Assembly (NCBI GenBank): GCA_003427395.1
Contig: BFEA01000037.1
Coordinates: 1,098,804 to 1,162,803 of the forward strand
DNA: 64,000 nucleotides
From: Chara braunii
Taxonomy: Eukaryota > Plantae > Charophyceae
Direction of reading: 5' to 3'
The notes beneath the pieces were generated by a model. That model had not been told where the DNA came from and did no database searches. It worked only from the letters and a program-made list of their open reading frames with translations. The position numbers and the translations under genes were made by a program. Positions 4,862 to 54,341 of the stretch are shown here, piece by piece. Position 1 is the first letter of the stretch. Each line of letters starts with the position of its first letter.

Positions 4862-5083
4862 TGTTACATCTTCGATTCACACGGGTCCTACCGGACCCGA
4901 CTTAGGGCCGGAGGGACACACCAGGGCCTAAAGGCCCGACCTTTTGGGGTTACAGGCCCTAAAGGCCTGATTTTGGGACCANCACCCATCGGGTAGGCCC
5001 AAACGACACTTCGTTTGGGCCTGGCGGCGCTCTTGAAGCTGCCGCCCGCCGATTGAGGCTGAACCGTCCATCTGGACGGTCCA
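4862..5083. repeat. Cluster of short perfect GC-rich hairpins at a contig end (possible element terminus starting TGTTAC)
   Basis: cgggtcc-tacc-ggacccg, gggcc-taaa-ggccc, caggcc-ctaaa-ggcctg, aggcccaaacga-cact-tcgtttgggcct, accgtcca-tc-tggacggt. Confidence 0.7.
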
Positions 5084-5748
5084 NNNNNNNNNNNNNNNNN
5101 NNNNNNNNNNNNNNNNNNNNNNNNNNNNNNNNNNNNNNNNNNNNNNNNNNNNNNNNNNNNNNNNNNNNNNNNNNNNNNNNNNNNNNNNNNNNNNNNNNNN
5201 NNNNNNNNNNNNNNNNNNNNNNNNNNNNNNNNNNNNNNNNNNNNNNNNNNNNNNNNNNNNNNNNNNNNNNNNNNNNNNNNNNNNNNNNNNNNNNNNNNNN
5301 NNNNNNNNNNNNNNNNNNNNNNNNNNNNNNNNNNNNNNNNNNNNNNNNNNNNNNNNNNNNNNNNNNNNNNNNNNNNNNNNNNNNNNNNNNNNNNNNNNNN
5401 NNNNNNNNNNNNNNNNNNNNNNNNNNNNNNNNNNNNNNNNNNNNNNNNNNNNNNNNNNNNNNNNNNNNNNNNNNNNNNNNNNNNNNNNNNNNNNNNNNNN
5501 NNNNNNNNNNNNNNNNNNNNNNNNNNNNNNNNNNNNNNNNNNNNNNNNNNNNNNNNNNNNNNNNNNNNNNNNNNNNNNNNNNNNNNNNNNNNNNNNNNNN
5601 NNNNNNNNNNNNNNNNNNNNNNNNNNNNNNNNNNNNNNNNNNNNNNNNNNNNNNNNNNNNNNNNNNNNNNNNNNNNNNNNNNNNNNNNNNNNNNNNNNNN
5701 NNNNNNNNNNNNNNNNNNNNNNNNNNNNNNNNNNNNNNNNNNNNNNNN
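5084..5748. other. Assembly gap (other gaps at 16212-16931, 24098-24772, 31601-31615, 33302-33479)
   Basis: Runs of N. Confidence 1.
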
Positions 5749-6180
5749 GACCTATCGGTGTGATCTACCTCCTACCTCCTTCGTCTCTCCTCCCACCTTT
5801 CATCTGTGTATGTGTGTACGGGATCTGGGTATCGTCTGTGAATGACCCAGACCCCACCATCTCATGATTGTATGTGTGTGGAGTGATGCCATGTAGGTCA
5901 GTCTATGTGAGTCAGTTCGTTATCAGACTTCCGCTGCATAAATGCTTGTTTTCCTTTAACCTGCTCAGCCAATCCTCAATGCTGGCAGGCGTCTGTCAAA
6001 CCTCTTTCCTTATATCCGCCAATTTCATTCTGTATTGGGTATGGCAGGCGTCTGTCAAACCTCTTTCCAGCAGGGGATGTTCCCCACCAGTAGATGGAGC
6101 CCCCTCCTAGGTGCTAGCGGTGTCTGCTTTTACCACCACCACTAGCACTGTAGGGGTTTTTGTCAAAAAATCATAATAAT

Positions 6181-15988: not shown

Positions 15989-17026
15989 TGTGAGGATTGA
16001 GCCCTCCAAGGGGCCTTGCCGTGATGTACATGTTTTGGGCTAAGGCCCCCAGCAAGCCTCGTGCCCGCCCTAAGTGAAGGCGGGCCAGCAAATCAACGAG
16101 AGCCCCTTTTGTTCAACATTTCACGAAGTGGGGTCCATACAGTTGCCGCACGCCAGTTGGTTGGAGTGCACCGAGTACCAGATCTCTGCAAATGCAGAAG
16201 GACCAGGGCCCNNNNNNNNNNNNNNNNNNNNNNNNNNNNNNNNNNNNNNNNNNNNNNNNNNNNNNNNNNNNNNNNNNNNNNNNNNNNNNNNNNNNNNNNN
16301 NNNNNNNNNNNNNNNNNNNNNNNNNNNNNNNNNNNNNNNNNNNNNNNNNNNNNNNNNNNNNNNNNNNNNNNNNNNNNNNNNNNNNNNNNNNNNNNNNNNN
16401 NNNNNNNNNNNNNNNNNNNNNNNNNNNNNNNNNNNNNNNNNNNNNNNNNNNNNNNNNNNNNNNNNNNNNNNNNNNNNNNNNNNNNNNNNNNNNNNNNNNN
16501 NNNNNNNNNNNNNNNNNNNNNNNNNNNNNNNNNNNNNNNNNNNNNNNNNNNNNNNNNNNNNNNNNNNNNNNNNNNNNNNNNNNNNNNNNNNNNNNNNNNN
16601 NNNNNNNNNNNNNNNNNNNNNNNNNNNNNNNNNNNNNNNNNNNNNNNNNNNNNNNNNNNNNNNNNNNNNNNNNNNNNNNNNNNNNNNNNNNNNNNNNNNN
16701 NNNNNNNNNNNNNNNNNNNNNNNNNNNNNNNNNNNNNNNNNNNNNNNNNNNNNNNNNNNNNNNNNNNNNNNNNNNNNNNNNNNNNNNNNNNNNNNNNNNN
16801 NNNNNNNNNNNNNNNNNNNNNNNNNNNNNNNNNNNNNNNNNNNNNNNNNNNNNNNNNNNNNNNNNNNNNNNNNNNNNNNNNNNNNNNNNNNNNNNNNNNN
16901 NNNNNNNNNNNNNNNNNNNNNNNNNNNNNNNCCATTGTGCTATCTGCTCTTGCTTTGACTACTTGGACTTCAGCGTGATTTTGCAATTTGGATTTCTATG
17001 CTTCGTCCACATTCATGTTCCTTGCA
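15989..17026 (+). repeat. 5' LTR
   Basis: 3 differences from the 3' LTR over ~318 sequenced bases. Confidence 0.95.
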
Positions 17027-23874: not shown

Positions 23875-24867
23875 TGTGAGGATTGAGCCCTCCAAGGGGC
23901 CTTGCCGTGATGTACATGTTCTGGGCTAAGGCCCCCAGCAAGCCTCGTGCCCGCCCTAAGTGAAGGCGGGCCAGCATATCAACGAGAGCCCCTTTTGTTC
24001 AGCATTTCACGAAGTGGGGTCCATACAGTTGCCGCACGCCAGTTGGTTGGAGTGCACCGAGTACCAGATCTCTGCAAATGCAGAAGGACCAGGGCCCNNN
24101 NNNNNNNNNNNNNNNNNNNNNNNNNNNNNNNNNNNNNNNNNNNNNNNNNNNNNNNNNNNNNNNNNNNNNNNNNNNNNNNNNNNNNNNNNNNNNNNNNNNN
24201 NNNNNNNNNNNNNNNNNNNNNNNNNNNNNNNNNNNNNNNNNNNNNNNNNNNNNNNNNNNNNNNNNNNNNNNNNNNNNNNNNNNNNNNNNNNNNNNNNNNN
24301 NNNNNNNNNNNNNNNNNNNNNNNNNNNNNNNNNNNNNNNNNNNNNNNNNNNNNNNNNNNNNNNNNNNNNNNNNNNNNNNNNNNNNNNNNNNNNNNNNNNN
24401 NNNNNNNNNNNNNNNNNNNNNNNNNNNNNNNNNNNNNNNNNNNNNNNNNNNNNNNNNNNNNNNNNNNNNNNNNNNNNNNNNNNNNNNNNNNNNNNNNNNN
24501 NNNNNNNNNNNNNNNNNNNNNNNNNNNNNNNNNNNNNNNNNNNNNNNNNNNNNNNNNNNNNNNNNNNNNNNNNNNNNNNNNNNNNNNNNNNNNNNNNNNN
24601 NNNNNNNNNNNNNNNNNNNNNNNNNNNNNNNNNNNNNNNNNNNNNNNNNNNNNNNNNNNNNNNNNNNNNNNNNNNNNNNNNNNNNNNNNNNNNNNNNNNN
24701 NNNNNNNNNNNNNNNNNNNNNNNNNNNNNNNNNNNNNNNNNNNNNNNNNNNNNNNNNNNNNNNNNNNNNNNNCCATTGTGCTATCTGCTCTTGCTTTGAC
24801 TACTTGGACTTCAGCGTGATTTTGCAATTTGGATTTCTATGCTTCGTCCACATTCATGTTCCTTGCA
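23875..24867 (+). repeat. 3' LTR
   Basis: Direct repeat of 15989-17026. Confidence 0.95.
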
Positions 24868-24997
24868 CACATCAACATTCCGCCAGTAATCACAACTGCG
24901 ACGTCGGCAGTCACGTTAGCGCCCTCCTCCAATGGGTCGGCTCTTCTTGCCACCAAACCCTGTTTCCGCTGCTGATCGACTCTTTTTTTTTTCCAGT

Positions 24998-25149
24998 AAA
25001 TTTCATTGACATCAACCCTCACTTCGAAATTTCATTGACCTCAACACCCCCACTTCAAAATTTTGTTGATGTCAACCATCACTTCAAAATTTTGTTGACA
25101 TCAACCCCCACTTCGAAATTTTGATGACATCAACCGCATCTCAACTTCG
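24998..25149. repeat. ~29-bp tandem repeat, 5 copies, in the retrotransposon 5' UTR
   Basis: Units like aaatttcattgacatcaaccctcacttcg and aaattttgttgacatcaacccccacttcg. Confidence 0.9.
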
Positions 25150-30900: not shown

Positions 30901-31466
30901 ATAGAGGTTGAAAGTTGCCTGTGCGGGGACTTCAGACTGAGATCGAAACATAGAAGCGTGCGTTGAATAGGCACCCTTCTGTTTCGAGGTCCCAATGGCA
31001 GAGACTGATGTAGGCCCCCACCTTTCTCGTTGTTCAGAGGTTGCTTGTGTTGGGACCACTCTCCCTCACAAGCATTGGTGATGAGTTGATCACTCGTCGT
31101 CGCGCTTGGGCCGAAATGACAAAGAAGTCGAAGGGGCATGTGTAATCCCCCTTACGTCATACGGGAGGTGTCTGTACGTCCCATCTGAACGGACGAACAA
31201 ACGGGCTTACGGTCGTACGACCGTGTCCCGACCGAACGTGCCAGGGCCTGGGGGGGGGGGGTTGACCCTCTGAGGAGGTACGGGGGGTGGCAAGGACCCC
31301 CCCAATATTTTTTGAAAAACATTTTGATTTTTTTTTGTGAAAAAAAAGAAAAAAAGATTGACTATTGATTGATTGATGTGTGAGTGTGTGCACGCGGGGG
31401 GGAGGCAACCTCCCCGCAACCAACCAATCAATTAAGGAAAAGAAAAAACATGGGCATTTGCCTCGC

Positions 31467-31501
<35 letters not shown>

Positions 31502-31710
31502 CGCGAGGGGGAGTGTGTGTGTGTGTGTTTGTGTTCGCGAGGGGGAGGCGAACCCCCCACAGCAAATCAATTAATCAATCAATCAATTTAAAAAAAAAAA
31601 NNNNNNNNNNNNNNNAAAAAGGAACGGTATTCGCCCCCTGTGCGTGTGTGTGTGTGTATGTGTGTGTATTCACGGGGGGAAGGCGACTCCCGCGCAACAA
31701 ATCAATCAAG

Positions 31711-31741
<31 letters not shown>

Positions 31742-31945
31742 GCAATCAAGCAATCAAGCAATCAATCAATGCAAAAAAACAAAAAAGGAAGGCGACCCCC
31801 CACAACCAATCAATCAATCGAGAAAAAAAACAAAAAGAACGTAATAGTGTCGCGCGTGGGTGTGGGTGTGGGTGTGCATGCAGATGGGATGCACCCCCCC
31901 CGCAACCAACCAACCAATCAATCAATCAATCTTTCTTTTTTGTAG

Positions 31946-41586: not shown

Positions 41587-42058
41587 AACGGCTAGCTCAT
41601 TTGGTAAGGCTTGCAAGTAACATTCAGGAGGTCGTGGGTTCAATTCCAATTGGCCGCCTGTACCTTCCTGGGCATGATTGGCACTCGCCACCTAAAGATA
41701 GACCACTGGATCCCCCGATTGACATTTAGCAGAGTTTGCTGATGTTCGTAGGAGGGGAGGGAGGCACAGGGATTGGTCTCGTTGGCATGGTCCCTGATGC
41801 TACCCGATGTTCCCTGGCCGGTATTGCCCACCTGTAGGTCGGGAGCAGCTCCCACGTGTTCTTTCGTGAACATGGTTCTGGCTGCCACGAGGTTCCCCGT
41901 ATGACTATAATCAGTAGTTGTAGGTAGGTATTGTGAGGTCCAATTGAGAGAAAAATGTAGCTTATTTTAAAAAATTAAAAAAAGAAAAAAAAATCTGCTC
42001 TATGCCCTGCATCGTTGGCAGGTTACAAGGCCTAAGAAGAAAAAGAAGAAAAAAAACC
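41587..42058 (+). mobile_element. tRNA-derived SINE-like element
   Basis: A box TAGCTCATTTGG and B box GGTTCAATTCC with tRNA spacing; A-rich tail; possible GAAGAAAAAAAAC TSD. Confidence 0.55.
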
Positions 42059-42685
42059 TTCCCCTCAATACGACTTTTTGCCCGCTATTGACGAGCATCA
42101 TCATATAGAGACAAACTTCCTCTCAGTGCCAGTGTCGGTGTGCGGTAATTCAAGACATATCCAAATATTAAAAAATGACACAAGGTCCGCTAAGCCTCGG
42201 TCGTTCAAAAGTTTACAATGGCCTCGAGTCAGAATGTTGTGCCTATTCCTCCCCGGCGCTCTTTTATAGGATCACATCCCCACGTGATTTCTCAGGACAC
42301 TCAAACTTTTACTACAAGTCATATCATCTCTTTCAGCAAGCCACACACCTGTGAGACTCACTCCCATACTTTAACCAATCTACCCCTGAGTAAGCACAAG
42401 AGCTTAAAACGCTTATTCAATCTAACATGAGGCTCCTTATGATCCGATATATACGTATAGTGTACTAAAAACTTGTATCCCTATCTTTCAATCCACTCGG
42501 TATATACTCAAGACCCTATTGACTAAAACACGAAATTGGAATAACACAATGGGTTAGTCTGTTATCTCTGCCTTTATATCCTTAGATCTCTCCATCTGAA
42601 CCTTCTAAACGCAACTTCTAGATGACCTAAAACACCCTTACGTACTAAAGCTTCCCAAGTCTAGGGGTTAAGGTTGATTACATTC

Positions 42686-43675
42686 TCATGCTGTTGTATT
42701 TCTCTTTAGCCCCCTTGACACCTTGCACCTTCGAGGGGTATGACCAACCTTCCCATAACAATCACACACTATCCTTGCCCATCGCTCTCGCCCTCTCTTA
42801 CTCCTACGCCTGGTCCAACTTACAGTTGGCGATGCCCCCATGTCAACACGCCCCTGATTTGGATCAGGTGCAATGGTAGGCAAGGCTATGCTAGATCCCT
42901 ACTCCTCTTTTACCTCAACCACCCCGTTTGCTTTATCCCACAATTCTTGCGAGGTGGTCACTATTTGCCTCGAACACTGCTCCTTTACGGTACCTTGACC
43001 TCCTTGGGCTAGGTTCCTCACTTTCCGTTGAGCCTTCGTCAACTTGGGAAGGTCACGCTCCTCCTTTACTTCAATCACCTTTTCACCTTCATTACTTCCT
43101 TTAACACTAGCCCGCCTTCTCGGGGTCCCCCTGAGGAGAAGTGACCCTTTGTCACCATCCTCTGCTCCTCCATCCTGACCAGCCGGCTCACTTGAGGCAC
43201 CCTCTAAAACCTTCCGTTTGCCCTTCCTAGCCTCTTCAAGTCACGTCAACCTTTTTTCCAGTATTCCAACTTGCCTTTGTATACCACTCAACTCTCCTGG
43301 TGCGGACGCAACTCCAACTGACTATACATGGTTCCCGCGATGTGGACTCTCTATTCCACCTTCTAAAAACCTTAACCTCAAAGAAGCCTCCAACTCGCCC
43401 CAAGTCTGCGATTTTAACATAAGAGTATACACTTCCTCACTCAACTCCTCGCAAATGAACAACGACCACATGCTCCACATCGCCTTTTCGTCCCACATCT
43501 TCGCGAGACTGAAGTTATGATAGCCACGTAGGAAGGCAGACAAATTCCTTCCCTGGAACAACATGGCATGAAGATCTTGGGGCATCGAGTCATATACTGA
43601 CTCGCACAACAACATTCTGCTGAGGCACGTGCTCCTCCAGTGCAGGATTTTGGCCAAGCCACTTCCTTGAGCCAT
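42686..43675 (-). pseudogene. Gag-like ORF remnant with a decayed zinc knuckle
   Basis: LFQGRNLSAFLRGY...W...TWGELEASLRLRF, then coiled-coil-like and charged segments, then CDCYGKVGHTPRRC. Confidence 0.6.
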
Positions 43676-46600
43676 GATGTTGATACCGGCCTGACACGCA
43701 TGACAAGCAATCGATCATCAGACTGTGGCGCAAGAAGGCTCAAAACAAATAAGGCTAATAAAAACTGTTAATACTCATTTCCCACTGACGACTTTCCTGT
43801 TCACACCACAAGGTCTAAACTTTAGTCAGCCTTGCTTTAACTTTAAGGGCAATATGAACAGTATACAACCTATATAGGCAGGATTTTCAAGCCAGTCATA
43901 AGTCGGCTGTAATCGTGGCTACAAATGTTACTGACCCTCGTACTCATATCACATAATGAAGTGACCGTAGACAAGTCTGCAAGAGATGCAGTTGGCAGAG
44001 CGTGAGGGTACTCCCTATCTACTCGCTACCGTCCGAATCTCGTCCCAATCTACAACCCTTTCGTCTGGATCATGGGATCTCGCATAAGCGTCAACCGCAT
44101 TGACCAGATCCCTGAGTCCTTGACTATGGGGCAGAAACCTTTGGTCCAAGTACAAGCCGTATATCAACTCGCACGTGTATCGTGCATGTCCCCATGCTCG
44201 TGTTTTCAAAGCGGCTTCTGCTGTGGTGTTTACCCTCTCATGTCCCCCAAAACACTTCTCTACCAGGAACTCGGGCAAGATAACTCGTAGGGGGGCCGAA
44301 GGTAGTACAAACTCTTATGTACGCTTGACCTCTATGCGGGTCTCTACCTGTTCCTCTCCTTCATGGTTTCTGCCTTTCGCCCACTTTGTCGCTGCTCTCT
44401 CAGCTATCCTCAAAGGCCTTGCGAGCAGGCTTCTATGCCCAAGTGCCAACTCAATCCCATGTAAGACCCAAAACGAGGGAGACACATACAAGGTCACTCT
44501 CACGATCGCGCAGTCATGACCATCCTCGAAACCGGACTTGATCAAGACGAAAATATCTTTGTTTATTAGTATGCCCTGCCAGGAAGAGATGTATTATCCT
44601 TCCTTGACTCGCCTTGGCAAGGATATCTCAAACCCATCTTTCTTCCTGACCGGCAAGGTCACACTAAGATTTTGAGTTGCCTTTGCTCTAGTCTGGGTTT
44701 TGCCCAACGTCTAGCATACACCTTTCGTTACTATGCTAACAATCGTGTCCTATCTTTATCTTTAAGGCCTTAGCCTCAAATTATCTTTCACTAAAATGTT
44801 TCATTTCCAGTGTTTATGACCACCCAGCTTAGAGGAAATAATAATGATAATATATCAAAATAATAGCACATTCACGGATATCAAAATTCATAATCATATT
44901 TACTCATGGAAAAATGATATATCACTTTAATAACTGACATCAACAATTCTTATAACAACCAAACACATTATGTATAAGCTAGTCAGTTGTCCAAAGCACA
45001 TACAAACACTTCATAATAAGTTCATATCAACAGACATTTCATATAATAAATATGTCATGATCAGAGATAAGACTGCTAACAATTAGCACTCTCAGAGATA
45101 ATACCAACGACAGTACCACATTTTACTCCTGTAGCTTTGACAGAAGTATACTGTGGCGAGAAAGGATAGCATCTCAAATCCCCGAGCCCCGCTCTAGGAT
45201 CAAGCCTCACTGCTTCTCCCTCCGATTCCAGCACTGGCTCCTTGCAGACTCTTGCTGACAAAGTAAACAACCTCACCACACACGCTTCGAGATGTACTGT
45301 CTCGTCCTGTGCTGGTGAACGCAATTGACACAAAAATAGTTGGGGATTCACCCCCTACCTCTTTGTAGCATGTAGTAGTTGCTTTCCTCATAGACCATGG
45401 TCTAACAAGGCTCAAATACTTTTCTCATTTTCAGTAGTAGTGTAGTTATCTTATCATAGAGGCTACAACAACAACACCCCACTATGGACCAGGAACACAG
45501 TTCTAGCGGCGGTCTCACTACTACTTACAAGACAAAGTTATAACTTCTTAAAAGACATTTCTTAGGAGAACAATAATATAGGATTTCACTCTTTCTCAGG
45601 GTAGACCTTACACATTGACCATTCTACGAGAAGAAACTTGTCTCAAGGAAGTGGTCACTTCATTCACCTCTGAATCCGCATCAGACGTGGATTGTGCGCA
45701 ATATGCCTCTACCCTTCTTTGAGGAGCAATCCAAACACATAAACTTAATAAACAACCATAAGCCGATAATCGGACTGGAGGCACTCATATAAATCCTTGC
45801 AGACTGACAAGTTCAAATACATACTTCAAATGCATAGCCCATGTAAATATTTCTTGTACTCAACAGTACATAGCCTCGCATAATTTGAACACTTGCCAAA
45901 CTCACTTACATTAACTCTGACATATATGGATGGGTTCAACATATAACTCAGACAAAATATCTTTAGAAGATAATAGTCTTAAGTTCTTAGCTCAAACCTC
46001 ATAGATTCAAGTGGATGGTCCAAACCTGGAAAGGTTCAAGCGAAGGTACAACTCATCGCCCTATCAAGGGTGAACAAAATAGTCTAAGCGCTAGTCCTTT
46101 CGCTATTATCCCAACTGCCTCTAGGATCAAATACCCAGTTTCTGAAAAGGTGCCATGCAGATTTACTACTTCCCGTAGTCCTCTCCATTAAGGTCATTGC
46201 TCGTCGTTGATCGCATCTGCTTATCGTCGTGTATGCCTAATTGAAACATATCACACGGGGCAGACTGCACATTTCCATGGCTATATAAGTTGAACAGCCG
46301 CGTAGAACCCAGACTCCACGATCTCAATCCATACTCATAAAAAAAACTTTTAGCGTTCTTAGCCTAACCCTCCTTAAAGTCTCTCGACGACTTCTAATAT
46401 AATAGGATCCCTTACACATTTTTGGCCTCACTCTAATGCAAAAACACCAAGTTGCTCTCATGACCACTTAGATAACCCTTTCGATCATAGTAGGTACCTT
46501 ATAGGGTCAATTTTCTCAATGGACGTTCTAAGCCCGACGTCACTTTATCTTACCCTGACCATACCAACCATGCAAACCAACGTCCAACCCCGTCAACTAT

Positions 46601-48569
46601 CGTTGTCAGAAGGGGTACCAACTCCAACTTTCATCCTACTAGTCACCGTACATTAACTCATAGTCAAAACGCTTATCCCTCTTGTGCTATCCCTACTGTG
46701 CTAGCCAAAACCAACTCACACAATCAATTCTCACTCGCTCTCTATCCAATACCATCAATCGATTAACCATAAAATTTCGAAGAAAACTTCTCATTTTGCC
46801 TAGTTCTTACTTCCCCATACCCGAATGTCGTTCCACTAGGGACAACGGTAAGCAATCGTTATCCCCAGCTACGGCGCTACCTGTCGAGCGCATCGGTCCG
46901 GCACCGCACAAGGCAGCGCGGGACCCTCCCGGCCGCGTCACGCAGGAGTTGGTCTTAATCCTCGTCACAAATACACTTGGAGCTTCCGCAAGTCGCTCAA
47001 ACCGAATGCGTCAGCCAAAGCTCTCGCGAACCCCCACGACAAGATAGGGCCTATGCGAGGCACGACTTACCTCCACCTTACGGGAGTTGTCAGCTCCCTT
47101 CGGTGGACGTATCCCCGCTGAGCTACCAGTCCACAGTACGAAAGCTAATCAGCTGCAATTGCACAGGTGGATCAGTCAAGGGCGTTTCTTGTTCGCTGTA
47201 TCATAGGGGGTACGCGGGGTATTACGCCTCTATTGGACCCGCACGCGAACCGACGCCTTGGGGGGTTGAGATCCCAAGCGTGACTCGTCGTCGGTCGACT
47301 AAGACGCATCCCACACACCACACATACACCACTCTAAAGAACATAAAAATAAAAACACACACACATACACATACATTTACAAAACGACAGAGGACAAACA
47401 ACGAGACAACACTCCTAGTCCCTTAGTAGTCATCTCATAACTTTCCGATGCGGAAATCGGATAGGCGTCGCGTGCGAGACTTAGTATAAAACCACGCGGA
47501 CGCAAGGCTTACTCATATCGATTCCCAATGCAAGCATACGCAAGCAGTCGCAATGATAGCGTTATATGTAGTACTCATACTTATGCGGTCCTCGTTAATC
47601 TCGAGGTTCGCATTCGACACTCAAGTGTCGGTTGACACGCGCCTTGAGGGATTGATCTCTCGACGCTAGATACCCGCCAAGTGCGGTTGAGAACCACACC
47701 CTCTTCTGCACCCTGCGGAAAATGGGTGGTACACAGGTTCATACCTGTGGTAACAATCGTCTTTTATCACCCTGGAAACCAACTCCTTCATCTAGGGCCT
47801 GGAGAGAAATCAAGGGGTTTGACTTTGACGGCTTCCACGGACTACAACGTCCAATCATAGAAATTCTATAAATCAAAGGTTAAAAGGGAAAGTCATTTTT
47901 TTCTCGAAAACATAATCTGTTTAACCCTTACGCACGGTCACAGCAGGCCACACGAAACACTTAAGACATATGTATTTACATATATATAGAGGGTTATTAA
48001 TATAGGACGATCACTTCTCACAGTCACAGTGAGACTCCTCGACAGTCAAATCTAAAGTCCGAATCACCGAACATACCTGCAATCACATCAAAGATCCAAC
48101 CAAAAGTCCATGCACTACTCGTGGTCAACTTCAATCATTATCTGCACTCACACCCCTTGTTTTAGCCATGCAAGCCTCACTCTTGTGCAACTCCTCAAAA
48201 TCAAATGCTCAGTACTTTTCTTAAATGGTCATTCAAATAAAGTCTGGGCGAAAACATAACAAACCAGTTGAAATCACAATGCTAAAGCCTTTAGGTTGAG
48301 TGACAAGAGTGGGTTGGAGTTGAGTCGTAAACCGACGAATCGGCAACCGACCTGTTATCAGTGATAACAGAAGATGATCATCGTAGGATTAAGTTAAAAC
48401 TAACCCAAATCCTGAATCAATCAATCAAGAAGACCTGTAACACAGAACAGACCAATCCCCAAGTTAAATCTATAAGTCCATGGAGAATAATCTTCATATC
48501 ATGATCTTGCTCAAAATCATTTTATTCAACTAAGCGTAAGTCTAACTCTAAGCAAGTGTCAAAAGGAAG

Positions 48570-49200
48570 GTAGTCTCTGGCAGAATCTCCTCTATACAGA
48601 GTGAATTTCTAGGATTGTCATCTGTCAAAATATAATCTTACTCCTTTAAACTAAGAAAAAATTTGGCAATGCTTTCCGTAGGAAAAGTGTCTTATTAGAA
48701 TTTATACTTACTCAAATATGAAAACAAAAACAATCTCTGATTCTGAAAAGTTAAATTTTGTTCAACTCTCTGAATTAGTAAAAATTTGGGCAGCATTTCC
48801 TTTAGAAAAGTAGATTTTCCAGATTTATACTAAGTCAGATATGAACTAAGAAACAAGATATGAGTTCAACTAAGACAAAATTTAACTAACTCCTTAGATT
48901 TGTAGAAATTTTGGCAGCACTCCCTTTGGAAGAGTGTTAATCCAAAATTTATACAAAGTTAAGTTCAGAATCTAAAGTGACTTTGACTTCTCAAGGTCCA
49001 ATTTTGTCTAACTTCCTGAAGTAGCAAAAATTCGGGCAGCACTCCATTTAGAAAAGGAGGCTTTTCAGATTTTTACTAAGTCAAAAAGTCAGACAAACTG
49101 AACCTTGAAAAGACAAAATATGACTAACTCCTTGGTTTTGTAGAAATTTCGGCAGCTCTTCCCGTAGAGAAAGTAGCTTACCAAGATTTATACAAGGCCA
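48570..49200. repeat. Array of 5-6 ~120-bp units, each with a ~60-nt hairpin
   Basis: GGCAGC/GGCAAT cores at ~48579, 48665, 48789, 48913, 49035 and 49151, within inverted arms. Confidence 0.85.
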
Positions 49201-49487
49201 AGTATAATAAATGATAATAGAAAATGCAGAAATCGACCTAAGTAAAAATAAAATTAGCTCACAAAATGCAGGAATTGAAACTAACTCCTAGGGCTCTAGC
49301 ACGTGGCGAGGAACTAAAGCAACTACCTATCAAACTGAAACTCAGACTCAGTAATAGTCTCACTCAGCCACATGCAGGCCAAACCACAAAGGTAAGTACT
49401 CTCACCGTCCCAAAGTCCACTTTATCAAACAATAGTTCATAGTCTCTCAATGATTTATCCCTTTATACCCAGCTTGCATAGGGCATA

Positions 49488-50210
49488 AAGTTAGACCACT
49501 CAAACTTATGGAACATGTCTAGCTTAACAATGAAATATACACAAACATAGAGCACAACAACTTTTCTCTTCTTTGGGCATATGATTAGGCCACCCTAGTC
49601 ACCCTGAACTGTTTAAGTATCCCAACTTTATATAACTATCTGCACTTAGTCTTTTGAGGTAGCATATAACTGAACCGATCATCTTTAGCTCAAGATTCAG
49701 TATGCCCCTTCGGAACACAAATTTATTCTTAATTAGTACTCTTTTCAGTTGGTGATAAACTATAATCAGACCACCCAAACTTATGGAACCTTGTCTGACT
49801 AGCCTGTTCATAAGTAGGATAGTAATAAAGTATAGTCAAGTTATAGCCTTCTGGTTCTAGCATGTGCGTGACGGTGGACCAAAACCACCCAAACTTATGG
49901 AACATGTCTTGGTCCTCATCCTGCTTCATTTCTCTTAAAACGAAAGCAAGAAGAGGCTAAGCCACTCAAACTTATGGAACATGCTCAGACCTCCTCGTTC
50001 AGAATAAACAAAAATTGAAAGAAAACCCCAAAGTAAACAAAGTGATCAAACCACTCAAACTTATGGAACATGCTTGGTCCCTGAAAGTCAATCACAGTCA
50101 GCCCTCACAAGTCAGAGCAACCAGACCACCCAAACTTATGAAACGTGTCTGGTTCTTCAGACAATTCAAAATAAACATAGCACTTGGTCTCCCCAAACTT
50201 ATGGAGACTT
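49488..50210. repeat. Array of 7-8 stem-loops with conserved loop CACYCAAACTTATGGAACAT and unique spacers
   Basis: Cores at 49497, (49619), 49772, 49886, 49963, 50052, 50127 and 50189. Confidence 0.9.
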
Positions 50211-51119
50211 GCGCAGCCTTTGATAGACCCAGCCAAACAATACTGTGTTCCTCCCATCCTTCCCCTAGATGCAATCCCACAGTTCACTTTCAGTCAAATA
50301 ATGAAACTGAAATTGACATTGCACATACATCCCTTTACTTAGTCTGGTTTATGCCCTGAAGTCATACCGAAAGTCATAGTACGGAAACAGACAAAATACT
50401 CAGCCAACCATAGCAAGGAATACAGATAGGGGTTATAACTGGGTTATAGAAGTAAGATGAAACTTTACCTCTCAGTTCCCTGCCTTCAGAATTCCTCCTG
50501 AGTTCCGGCAGAGCTCCCACAATTGGTGGGCTGACTCCCCACAAAGTCATGATGTGGTCCTACGGGTTGCAATTCCACCTGCCGCCTTCCTCTCAGCACT
50601 AGACTAGACTTAGAGTAAGAAGGGTAGAAGATAAGGGGTTTCAGACGCTCGAGATACAAGAGGGGGACAGACTCAACTCGCGGGAGAGGGCCTTGTTATC
50701 TTCCGTCGCCTGAGGGCCCCGTAATAATGGCAAAAAATGTGCAGCAGTTTAGTCAAGCAGAAGTCAAATTGTTGATAGATGGCACCTTGACAGGGCTTTA
50801 AGTCGCAGTTGTAACCCCCTTCACAAGCCCGATCTCGCCACCAAGTCTCACTACCTCGATCTCAGACAGCACCGTCGATTGGCAATGGTGCACACCTCCC
50901 TCACACTTCATCAGAATGTTGGCGACGCGTAACAATACACAACAAAATACAGTTTACTCAGTCAACTGCAATCAAAATGCCACCTATTAACTCCTCGGTG
51001 GTTCTCCTGCTCGCAGTAAAGACCCCCTCTAACGTCATAACGAACTAGCAGCGTGGTTTGGCACATAGTAGGTGACGTGCATGCCTTTGGCTGTGCAGTC
51101 TTCACCAAGCTCCGGTACG

Positions 51120-51610
51120 TACCCGACGAAACAGGTAAGTCGTTACCCAACAATTGACCTCCCTGGTGATCTGGTTAAAGGGATGAGCGGCATCCCGACT
51201 AACAGGTAAGTAAGCTTATCCCTGTCGGTAGGATGAGCATAATCGGATGAATCTTCCGCTCGGACATAGAAATATATGCTGGTTTCCAGGCATGCCTGTA
51301 GGGATAGAGGGCCGCCACATTCGTCAACAGGATGAGCAAAAATCGGAATGAATCTCCCACTTAAAATGCGGGACGATACTTCACGACGTTGTGTCGAGGG
51401 TGCACGACACCAATCTGACCACCCAATAAGTCTTTTTTTTTTTTTTTTTTTTTTTTTTTCCCTTTCTCGGTGAGATGAATTAGTCGGAATGAATCTCCTG
51501 CTAGAATCATGAGCCACATACGCCCCGACCAAGTAAGTATGTTCGTCCCGACTTGCCTCCGCCCTTTTACTCACCAGCTATGCGATAAGAAAATGAATCT
51601 TCTACGAGGA
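51120..51610. repeat. Interspersed motif array (GATGA...TCGGAATGAATCT and CCCGAC...AGGTAAGT)
   Basis: Copies at ~51231, 51330, 51472, 51583 and at ~51122, 51194, 51524. Confidence 0.7.
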
Positions 51611-52646
51611 CCGAAGAAGGTACATCATTCCTCCTGTTGCGGGACTCTACTCTCATACCCTGCACGACTTGACATAGCCAATCAGCTAGGACCCTCTCTC
51701 GCTCGCTCACGAGCCATCTTCAATCACCGCTTACGTTGGTTGACACTTCACACAGTTTTCGGCTACTATACGTATGAAATAACAATGAACCTCCCCCTAA
51801 AACATTGGGAGATACATTCTGTCAAGACAAAGTCATCTTCGACATAGCTTCTAATCGTTTCAGCACAACAACCAACCTCTAAATCTGAAGTCTGGCCCTA
51901 CCATCGAATTCATCTAGCCCCAAAACCTTAGTGTAGAGCTTCTATCCGTCGAAAGCGGTCAAGGGACGATCGTCTTGACAGTCCTCTCTCTCCTCCTCCT
52001 TTCCTCCCGCCATCTCCGCGCGATGTCTTTCTCTACTAACTTTTATATCTCTAACTTTCTTCTAAAACTGACGTCACCATTCGATTCGCTCGGGGTAAAA
52101 ACCCCGAGATCAACTTTTTGTTCAACCGATTCGGCAAGGAAGCGGGCGAGCTATGAGTTATCTGCTTCATCATATCTCCTTCTCCCGTTACCTTCGCACT
52201 GTTTATTGCTCTCCTACTACCTTTCCTAGCCATCTACACGCCAAACTAACACCACTAATCGATTCGCAATGTCCGAAAACCCGCACTTAGGATCCTACCT
52301 CGCCCGATTCTATAAGGAATCGGGGAGATATCATTTTTTTTTCTCCCACCATATCTACTTTCGCTATAGTTTCGCGCACCTCACTTCCGTTCTACTGTCA
52401 AAACTACTCACTCAACCCCAAATCCAGCTTCGTCAACGGATTCGCCCCGCCTAAAAACCCGAGGTTTGGTCTTTACTCTACCCAAATCCGTTGGGAAACA
52501 AGGGTGCAACAAGCTTTTCACCCTTCTTCCCCACTCTTCCCCTTTCTCCAAATGAACCCGACACGAAAATACGCCCTGATTCATTCCCTTTTCTTGCCTT
52601 CCTTTGCCTCGCACTAACGCTGGCCATCTCCCTTCCTTCGCGCCCA

Positions 52647-52733: not shown

Positions 52734-54341
52734 TTCAACACTCCCGTTCCCTCTCTCATTTGCCGGTCGTCGCTGCGTGCCCGCTCTCATGTTTGCTCCT
52801 TTTCTCCCCCTATCGTTGCCGTACTCCTCATTTCGAAGTTAGCTCAGCGCACGGCCTCACAACTCGTCCTGATGCCCGCACAACGTTCGACAGCAACCGG
52901 TGAAGCATGGTGTGCTCAACCAGTTTGGTTGTTCTGCGAGAGACCACTGACGGGGCCGGCTACTAGCTGGTTCGATTAGTATCTCGCACCTATACCCACG
53001 TCCGAGGAACGAGCTGCACAGTTGTTATCGCCCCAGCCTTCGCCACGCTTTCCTCCTGTTTTCCCCTGGCCCGCCTCCTTCAAACAGACCCCACCACTCC
53101 TTCCGTTTTTTTTTTTCAGCAGACAAACCCCACTTAGGCTTCTCATAGCAGGCTGTGTGAAACGGCCCGACGCGGATCTTGGTGATAGTAGCAAATATCC
53201 AAATGAGAACTTTGAAGACCGAGGTGGAGGAGATTCCACAGGCCAGCTAGGCATTCGGCACGGCTGCACGCCTCCTCACTGTGCCCTGGATTGCTGCCTG
53301 CCTCCTCTGGCCCCGACGGGCATGCCCACTCAAGCCTTTTTGCGGCAGTTAGCGGTTGACGGACGGTGCACTCGACGATGGTCCCCGCCGTTGAGGTTTC
53401 CTCTTCGTCGTAGGTCAAATCACCCACTGGCCCGCATGCATGTTGAACTCCTCGGTCCACGTTTCAAGTCAAGGGATTTCGGTAGCATTCCGAACACGCT
53501 GAATCCGAATGGGCCCGTCAACGGAGGCACATACTCAAGGTCCTCGACTGCCTTAACGGCCACCCGTGGCCGATGTCATACCTACGGTCAAAGCATAGAA
53601 TTAAATAACAAAAATCAATAAATAATAAAATACTCATGACAATTCTAATCGTCAAAATACGATGAACCGAGGGAAAAAGAAACCGCTAATACCGTTCCGA
53701 CACCGCCGACGGTAAAACCAAGGGGAATAACCCCCACCGGGCTCTCGTCCCCATCGATCCTTCCTCATTACTCTGATATTCTCGCTTCGTCGCCGCTCGA
53801 CCTCGGATACTGCGCGACGCGCAAACCTACCAACACATTTTTAAAATCACATTGTTGTCGATGTCGTCCTTCACACGTACGCACAGGTTACAGGCAAGTG
53901 CATCAATCAAAAAACAAAATTTCTTTAATCCTTAGTTTAATAAAAAAAATATGGACGGTGACCACGCCGGCCCTTCAATCATCAACAACAAAGAGATCAC
54001 GCGTGCCTTAAGTCTGTGCGCCCACACACTCTTTACTCTAACCAACCACCTAGTCAACGTAAATCATAGACTCAGTCGCACCTCGCGCGATATACCGAAA
54101 TTTTAAACCAACCTTATTCTCTGTCACTTACAAAAACTAGGGCGGATACCCTTGTAAGGGTATTTGCACCGACATTGGGTCCCCTCCCTCTTGCTGTGAG
54201 AAGCAGGGCACATGGAAATATGATGGTGTGTCTTTCTAAATTTGAGTAGAAGATTCATTCTCATTTTCTACCTTCCGTGGCTGGTTGAGTGAGACCCCTA
54301 TCTTTTCTTTCTCTTTCTTTCTTTCTTTCTTCTTCCACAAA

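What the first reader, a model, noticed from the sequence alone, without database searches (positions are those of the whole stretch)
49488..50210. CRISPR-looking array of stem-loops with a near-invariant 20-nt loop and co-varying stems
Seen: the motif CACYCAAACTTATGGAACAT recurs 7-8 times, 62-153 nt apart, separated by unrelated spacers. The sequences flanking the motif differ between copies yet pair each time: aagttagac/gtctagctt, taatcagac/gtctgacta, ggaccaaaac/gtcttggtcc, gaggctaagc/gctcagacctc, gatcaaac/gcttggtc, aaccagac/gtctggtt. The last copy re-forms a tighter stem, gtctcc/ggagac. Several plus-strand A-C mismatches become G-U pairs on the minus strand, which is the strand of the element's gag-like ORF; two T-G pairs point the other way. 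Inference: simple tandem duplication would conserve stems and spacers too, so this pattern suggests selection for a multivalent RNA (or ssDNA) display of one loop. Candidate roles are a Gag/packaging or export signal, a protein sponge, a small-RNA decoy, or processing sites that release the spacers.
Basis: partly seen in the sequence, partly recalled or inferred. Interest (0 to 1): 0.88.

Follow-up and report, generated by a model that had tools for sequence, protein, structure and literature searches.

The report
Same-loop hairpin array in algal retrotransposon
A very common jumping gene of a stonewort alga carries seven small hairpins whose stems differ yet still pair and whose 20-letter loop is nearly unchanged; they likely act as repeated docking sites on the element's own RNA, possibly for packaging or export, but the binding partner is untested and it is not CRISPR.

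Summary
Confirmed: six full copies and one partial of the loop, with stems that pair only with their own partner (44 of 54 Watson-Crick pairs; best of 720 arm permutations), loops 95% alike, arms 50%, spacers unalignable. An eighth copy is not supported. The array is non-coding DNA of a high-copy Chara retrotransposon family. It lies on the minus strand behind a primer-site-like motif, a conserved expressed leader and a conserved splice-donor motif, and ahead of a second, missed array of six long hairpins, an extra ORF and a broken gag-like ORF. Spacers are inherited colinearly in other copies, so nothing CRISPR-like is happening. The G-U strand argument is unsound: the one wobble checkable is decay of this copy. 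Strand rests on gag orientation and one RNA run; a second run and local folding point the other way. Best reading (about 50%): a multivalent RNA docking array marking the unspliced genomic RNA for an element-encoded protein. Partner untested. The scan noted similar arrays, with other loops, in retrotransposons of other genomes (e1-7392714, e1-9518944, e1-9776445). New variant of a known kind.

The parts
49488..49525 (-). Array A hairpin 1 (9-bp lower stem, 20-nt conserved loop region)
49763..49801 (-). Array A hairpin 2; the mismatch at 49765 is private to this copy
   Evidence: table 3 (48558 of 49443 depth differ from the window here)
49876..49915 (-). Array A hairpin 3 (10-bp stem, best formed on minus strand, z -3.4)
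49953..49993 (-). Array A hairpin 4 (stem with one bulge)
50044..50079 (-). Array A hairpin 5 (weakest; not predicted to form on either strand in this copy)
50119..50154 (-). Array A hairpin 6 (8-bp perfect stem)
50187..50208 (-). Array A partial copy 7: keeps the 13-nt core (3-bp stem plus six-base loop) on a different 6-bp stem
48576..49206 (-). Array B: five full and one partial long hairpins, about 122-nt period, co-varying stems, conserved apical part; cUACGg tetraloop on the minus strand in 2 of 5
   Evidence: (own pairing 87 of 110, reached by 3 of 120 permutations)
50469..50715 (-). Conserved leader module, the most RNA-rich part in run X7
   Evidence: tables 2, 3, 7
50462..50472 (-). 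Splice-donor-like motif GAGAG|GTAAAG (intron would start at 50468); GTAA kept in diverged copies
   Evidence: table 7 (loose ends at 50465 and 50467); splicing inferred, not shown
50716..50739 (-). Primer-binding-site-like motif (TGG start in relatives, decayed here) next to a possible LTR end; the family stops matching here
   Evidence: tables 2 and 7; tRNA match not tested; inference
44030..44707 (-). Extra ORF upstream of gag (broken in this copy), family of Chara braunii hypothetical proteins, no Pfam family
42686..43675 (-). Broken gag-like ORF ending in a zinc-knuckle-like motif; no pol follows in this copy

Best explanation
The seven hairpins are a selected, repeated structure in the non-coding part of a high-copy Chara gag-bearing retrotransposon, and they likely serve as a multivalent docking array on the element's unspliced minus-strand RNA for an element-encoded protein (Gag or the extra ORF), which would tag that RNA for packaging or nuclear export. 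Shown: the loop is conserved while stems co-vary and spacers diverge; the stretch is a large repeat family whose copies inherit the array, with unit number varying. Inferred: each unit folds as lower stem, asymmetric internal loop, 3-4 bp upper stem and a six-base apical loop; only the stem's shape and the loop's letters are read; the array lies behind the primer site and a major splice donor, so spliced mRNA would lose it and genomic RNA keep it; template switching at the identical loops would add or drop units. Untested: the partner, the splicing, and whether array and gag belong to one uninterrupted element.
For: Covariation and loop-only conservation. High copy number: DNA word depth 9,649-76,567 over the array against 17-30 at 50974-51201; 42,579 contigs laid, mostly 80-95% alike. 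Joints that skip about one or two units (49906>50084, 50001>50084, 50004>50117; table 5; mapping artefacts not excluded). At 49966, 98% of family depth has the letter that keeps the upper stem paired on the minus strand (table 3). A second array with co-varying stems and a minus-strand cUACGg loop that recurs in a family loose end of 141 contigs. Run X7: first mates on + outnumber - by 95 to 4.5 over the leader and 13 to 2 over array A, i.e. minus-strand RNA if the library is of the usual type; RNA per DNA falls about 8-fold from leader to array A (5.1e-4 to 6.0e-5). Nine X7 reads leave the element with foreign letters at the donor (table 7). Gag-like ORF on the same strand: 14 homologues, all Chara braunii; a full CCHC knuckle in 1 of 20 stored proteins; Atlas neighbours are Gag-type families at 0.82-0.86, a lead only. 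Negative GC skew is unbroken from 42 to 55 kb. Precedents: IAP RTE, musD MTE and Cer1 CERV for export of unspliced RNA (passages of PMC12786077, PMC10309623).
Against: No binding data. Run X8 has more reads of the opposite direction over array A (439 to 249) and array B (370 to 133) and only a 1.4-fold drop after the donor; its depth tracks DNA depth (Spearman 0.88), which I read as passive read-through, an inference. In 100-nt context the lower stem forms on the plus strand in 5 of 6 copies but on the minus strand in only 2 of 6. RNAalifold on an ungapped alignment found the lower stem on plus only. The second exon of the nine reads was not found in the window. The 4.8 kb between array and ORFs were not shown to be one element; 46800-47900 differs in CpG content and no LTR pair was found. 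Relatives mostly read TA, not CA, at the supposed LTR end (table 7). RNA depth over the array in X7 is only 0-4 reads.
Confidence: 0.5

Rival explanations
1. The loops dock a host factor rather than an element protein: a host RNA-binding protein, or a host small RNA that the array soaks up as a decoy to blunt silencing.
For: The conserved stretch is about 20 nt, the length of a small RNA. The minus-strand loop holds UGU-NNN-AUA, which resembles a PUF-protein site (recalled, no call). Many relatives have a degenerate knuckle.
Against: Part of the loop is paired into an upper stem that is conserved, poor for a base-pairing target. The UGU is lost in 2 of 6 copies and in copy 7. No Rfam match over array A at E<=10. 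No small-RNA data could be laid.
Confidence: 0.17
2. The hairpins work on a plus-strand (antisense to gag) transcript of the element, for example a regulatory non-coding RNA.
For: X8 direction bias and plus-strand folding in 5 of 6 copies; a perfect plus-strand donor motif at 49392 in the most conserved bins.
Against: X8 opposite-direction depth per DNA is flat (1.5-2.0e-3) over leader and both arrays, as expected from read-through; X7 points to minus; cUACGg loop reads on minus; Watson-Crick stems fold on either strand.
Confidence: 0.12
3. A decayed tandem repeat whose arms are kept complementary by a mutational process (template switching or repair within a quasi-palindrome), with no function.
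For: Tandem arrays are common in the non-coding parts of plant Ty3 elements (PMC7004042, search listing only); this copy is old and CpG-poor (0.28).
Against: Such a process explains paired arms but not a loop at 95% identity beside arms at 50% and unalignable spacers; the family keeps the array in many copies.
Confidence: 0.1
4. A DNA-level element: repeated transcription-factor or insulator sites, or hairpins read on the single-stranded cDNA during reverse transcription.
For: Repeated palindromic motifs in Sirevirus LTRs are thought cis-regulatory (PMC4728375, abstract and one section); gypsy Su(Hw) arrays (recalled).
Against: Double-stranded sites need no co-varying arms 20 nt apart; as DNA the hairpins are weak (-2.2 to -6.4 kcal/mol); Sirevirus palindrome loci differ in sequence from one another, unlike these loops.
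Confidence: 0.08
5. A CRISPR-like array whose repeats are processed to release spacers as guides.
For: Repeat-spacer look of the array.
Against: Spacers 22-234 nt, A-rich, colinear in other copies at about 83-86% identity across two to four units (table 8, records 6, 10, 11); repeat stems vary; no Cas-like domain among 30 window ORFs scanned; no pile-up of read ends (table 6, long-RNA libraries only).
Confidence: 0.03

Closest known systems
Export elements of unspliced retroelement RNA: IAP RTE, musD MTE, MPMV CTE, HIV RRE with Rev, Cer1 with CERV
   Same: Structured non-coding RNA inside a retroelement, placed where splicing would remove it; an extra element ORF as candidate adaptor (passages of PMC12786077 and PMC10309623).
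   Different: Those are single folded domains, mostly late in the genome; here seven plus six separate hairpins lie in a several-kb leader. PMC12786077 says RNA export of plant LTR elements has not been studied directly. No sequence or Rfam match.
Retroviral and Ty psi packaging stem-loops between primer site and gag
   Same: Position after a primer-site-like motif and before a gag with a zinc knuckle; loops read by sequence, stems by shape (passages of PMC5035971, PMC4974528).
   Different: Psi signals have two to four small hairpins with 4-7 nt loops (recalled); here a 20-nt invariant stretch repeated seven times, over 5 kb before gag.
Palindrome-rich repeated motifs of Sirevirus LTRs
   Same: Few repeated hairpin-forming units in a plant-lineage LTR element, unit number variable (PMC4728375, abstract and section 16).
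   Different: Those lie in the LTR promoter region of Copia elements and their sequence is not conserved between loci; here the loop is nearly invariant and the array seems internal.
Tandem arrays in Ogre/Tat untranslated regions and Drosophila gypsy/ZAM 5' arrays
   Same: Repeat arrays in retrotransposon non-coding DNA; extra ORF before gag as in Ogre (PMC7004042 listing; rest recalled).
   Different: Those units are alike over their whole length or are double-stranded DNA sites; no co-varying stems around a fixed loop are described in what I saw.

Membership tests
CRISPR array | Near-identical repeats including the stem | tested here: not met
   Arms 50% alike, only the loop conserved
CRISPR array | Spacers of uniform length, acquired from outside | tested here: not met
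   22-234 nt; colinear in other family copies (table 8)
CRISPR array | cas genes nearby | tested here: not met
   30 window ORFs scanned against Pfam gave only retrotransposon domains and one sub-threshold unrelated hit
Ty3/gypsy LTR retrotransposon | gag with capsid domain and CCHC knuckle | tested here: inconclusive
   Full knuckle in 1 of 20 stored relatives, broken here; Atlas Gag-type neighbours under 0.9; weak match to another Gag stretch, 19% over 52 aa; no Pfam or PDB hit
Ty3/gypsy LTR retrotransposon | pol (PR-RT-RH-INT) behind gag | tested here: not met
   No pol behind this gag in the window; copy is truncated or gag-only
Ty3/gypsy LTR retrotransposon | Two LTRs | tested here: not met
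   No matching pair in the window
Ty3/gypsy LTR retrotransposon | Primer-binding site complementary to a tRNA 3' end | tested here: inconclusive
   No tRNAiMet-type site in the region; TGG-led motif at the family boundary in relatives (table 7); no Chara tRNA set to compare
Retroelement packaging signal (psi) or export element | Lies on the genomic RNA strand, kept in unspliced RNA | tested here: inconclusive
   X7 supports, X8 does not
Retroelement packaging signal (psi) or export element | Specific binding by Gag or an export adaptor, needed for packaging or export | not testable with these tools
   Needs binding and reporter assays
Known RNA family (miRNA, snoRNA, ribozyme, tRNA) | Match to an Rfam model or tRNA fold | tested here: not met
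   No hit over array A at E<=10; array B only sub-threshold hairpin hits; no tRNA

The most novel reading that the evidence does not exclude
A Rev/RRE-like system in the green-plant lineage: a spliced leader exon joins to the extra ORF, whose product (or Gag) multimerises on two different hairpin arrays inside the intron and so licenses export and packaging of the unspliced genomic RNA of one of Chara's major retrotransposon families.
Probability: 0.15. Interest if true: 0.8.

Novelty: new variant of a known kind. Interest (0 to 1): 0.5.

Why it matters
How plant-lineage LTR retrotransposons pick and export their genomic RNA is open: a 2025 review states that export has not been studied directly in plants (PMC12786077, passage), and packaging signals are not clearly defined even for Ty1 (PMC4974528, passage). 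A 20-nt invariant loop repeated seven times on exchangeable stems, in a family with hundreds to thousands of copies, is a ready-made bait and a deep natural alignment, so it makes the question directly testable. With the look-alike arrays that this scan noted in other genomes (unchecked notes), it hints at a recurring design in retrotransposon leaders.

Tried and rejected
No whole genome was held, so family copies could be seen only through one read lay; RNA over the extra ORF and gag was not measured, which leaves the link between array and ORFs open. Motif scans of metagenome and viral contigs gave 4 loci; I read two (coding context, no stems; one an exact 90-nt tandem repeat) and checked all four for repeats: chance hits. 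Run search: no RNA holder listed. The 132-aa plus-strand frame across the array has no relative among longer proteins (weak evidence). Eighth copy near 49619 and a weak half-match at 42293 (E 0.82) rejected. Loop pairing with other parts of the element no better than shuffled loops (-17.1 against -17.8), self-dimer only -7.0, so no kissing-loop support. Structure models of the gag-like protein were too poor to use (pLDDT 56.5 and 44.6; no Foldseek match). The representative-protein search and the Atlas search for the extra ORF did not complete. The Chara genome paper is not held. Nine paper searches listed no description of this array; subscription journals and supplements were not seen.

Full report
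1. Observation. The motif is real. It matches 6 times in the 64-kb window with at most 2 mismatches, against 0.01 expected, and a shortened seventh copy keeps the 13-nt core. Spacing is 275, 114, 77, 89, 75 and 63 nt; an eighth copy is not supported. To test co-variation I paired every 5' arm with every 3' arm: own partners give 44 of 54 Watson-Crick pairs, the mean over 720 permutations is 29.5, and only the true pairing reaches 44. Loops are 95% alike, arms 50%, and the 21 spacer pairs align no better than shuffles. The six units are related, so the permutation figure is not a strict probability, but each unit pairs best, or tied best, with itself.

2. Setting. The window is repeat-rich eukaryotic DNA with Ty3-type pol genes elsewhere. 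The minus-strand ORF at 43675-42686 has 14 relatives, all hypothetical proteins of Chara braunii; a further ORF precedes it at 44707-44030, with 11 hits in the same species. The first ends in a zinc-knuckle-like motif, complete in 1 of 20 stored proteins and degenerate in 7; its Atlas neighbours are Gag-type families at 0.82-0.86, a lead only. Pfam, PDB and structure prediction did not confirm it. No pol follows and no LTR pair was found, so this copy is truncated or gag-only.

3. The family. Laying one DNA run and three RNA runs on 48010-51400 shows a high-copy family from at least 48010 to about 50735: 42,579 contigs, mostly 80-95% alike, with depth over array A some 300 to 4,500 times the single-copy level (a rough figure, not a copy number). 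Contigs from other copies run colinearly across two to four hairpins and their spacers (records 6, 10, 11), so spacers are inherited. Some joints skip about one or two units, suggesting that unit number varies. Only 40 of 962 variant rows were shown. Two fall in the array's paired parts: at 49765 the family letter makes the stem of copy 2 fully Watson-Crick, so that G-U is decay of this copy, and at 49966 it keeps the upper stem paired.

4. A second array. At 48576-49206 lie five full and one partial long hairpins with a period near 122 nt, co-varying stems (87 of 110 pairs; 3 of 120 permutations reach it) and a conserved tip. Two of five close with cUACGg on the minus strand, and a family loose end of 141 contigs shows the same loop.

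5. Architecture and strand. Read on the minus strand the order is: family boundary with a primer-site-like motif (50733-50716; tRNA match untested, and relatives mostly lack the CA expected of an LTR end), a conserved leader (50715-50469), a donor motif GAGAG|GTAA at 50468 that diverged copies keep, array A, array B, about 3.8 kb not analysed in the family, the extra ORF and gag. In run X7 first mates lie on + by 95 to 4.5 over the leader and 13 to 2 over array A, which means minus-strand RNA if the library is of the usual kind (not checked with a control gene); RNA per DNA drops about 8-fold after the donor, and nine reads leave at the donor into foreign sequence whose source is not in the window. 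Against this: run X8 has more reads of the other direction over both arrays and little drop; its depth follows DNA depth, which I take for read-through of embedded copies (inference). Local folding also favours the plus strand in this decayed copy, 5 of 6 against 2 of 6, while 56-nt folds are mixed. I put the minus strand at about 75%.

6. Mechanism. Shown: selection-like conservation of one loop on exchangeable stems, inherited in a large family. Inferred: each unit is a lower stem, an internal loop, a short upper stem and a six-base loop, presented seven times on the element's RNA behind a splice donor, so that only unspliced RNA would carry it; an element protein binding cooperatively would mark that RNA for packaging or export (about 50%). 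Rivals: host protein or small-RNA decoy (17%), function on an antisense RNA (12%), neutral repeat with palindrome repair (10%), DNA-level sites (8%), CRISPR-like processing (3%). Loop pairing to other parts of the element or to itself found no support.

7. Known systems. It works most like export and packaging elements of unspliced retroelement RNA (IAP RTE, musD MTE, Cer1 CERV: passages of PMC12786077, and PMC10309623; psi: passages of PMC5035971, and PMC4974528), but membership is untested. Sirevirus palindrome arrays differ in lying in the LTR and in not conserving sequence between loci (PMC4728375, abstract and section 16). It fails the CRISPR tests and matches no Rfam family. Nine paper searches listed no description of this array; the Chara genome paper and supplements were not seen. 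This scan has no note on this sequence but noted same-loop arrays in retrotransposons of other genomes, which I did not check.

8. Verdict. Real, selected-looking, non-coding structure of an abundant algal retrotransposon; not CRISPR-like; a new variant of multi-hairpin cis signals in retroelements, with an untested Rev/RRE-like reading as the upside. Interest 0.5.

Noticed in passing
window 48576-49206: Second array of long co-varying hairpins with a conserved tip, about 122-nt period, in the same high-copy family.
   Followed up: yes
window 49388-49400: Perfect plus-strand splice-donor motif in the most conserved bins of the family, between the two arrays; unexplained.
   Followed up: partly
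window 31370-31930: Array of G/C-rich hairpins, each between a (GT)n and an (AATC)n run, inside a plus-strand Ty3 element; a related piece with a poly(A) end matches 51202-51315.
   Followed up: partly
window 52060-52506: Three units at exactly 178-nt spacing, each with a hairpin closing an A-rich loop.
   Followed up: partly
window 41590-41650: tRNA-like stretch (D and T loop motifs by eye), not called by ARAGORN; possibly a SINE head.
   Followed up: no
window about 4900-5870, 16000-17000, 23900-25000: Three blocks of about 900 nt with only 15-17% G+C, open in all six frames; two share 300 nt at 99%.
   Followed up: no
window 50784-50999 and 53730-53937: Weak direct similarity (z 4.3) just upstream of the family boundary; possibly old LTR pieces.
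   Followed up: partly
P0001, P0004, P0006, P0009, P0012, P0016, P0017: A large subfamily of the gag-like protein shares the same degenerate zinc knuckle, suggesting gag-only or non-autonomous lineages.
   Followed up: partly
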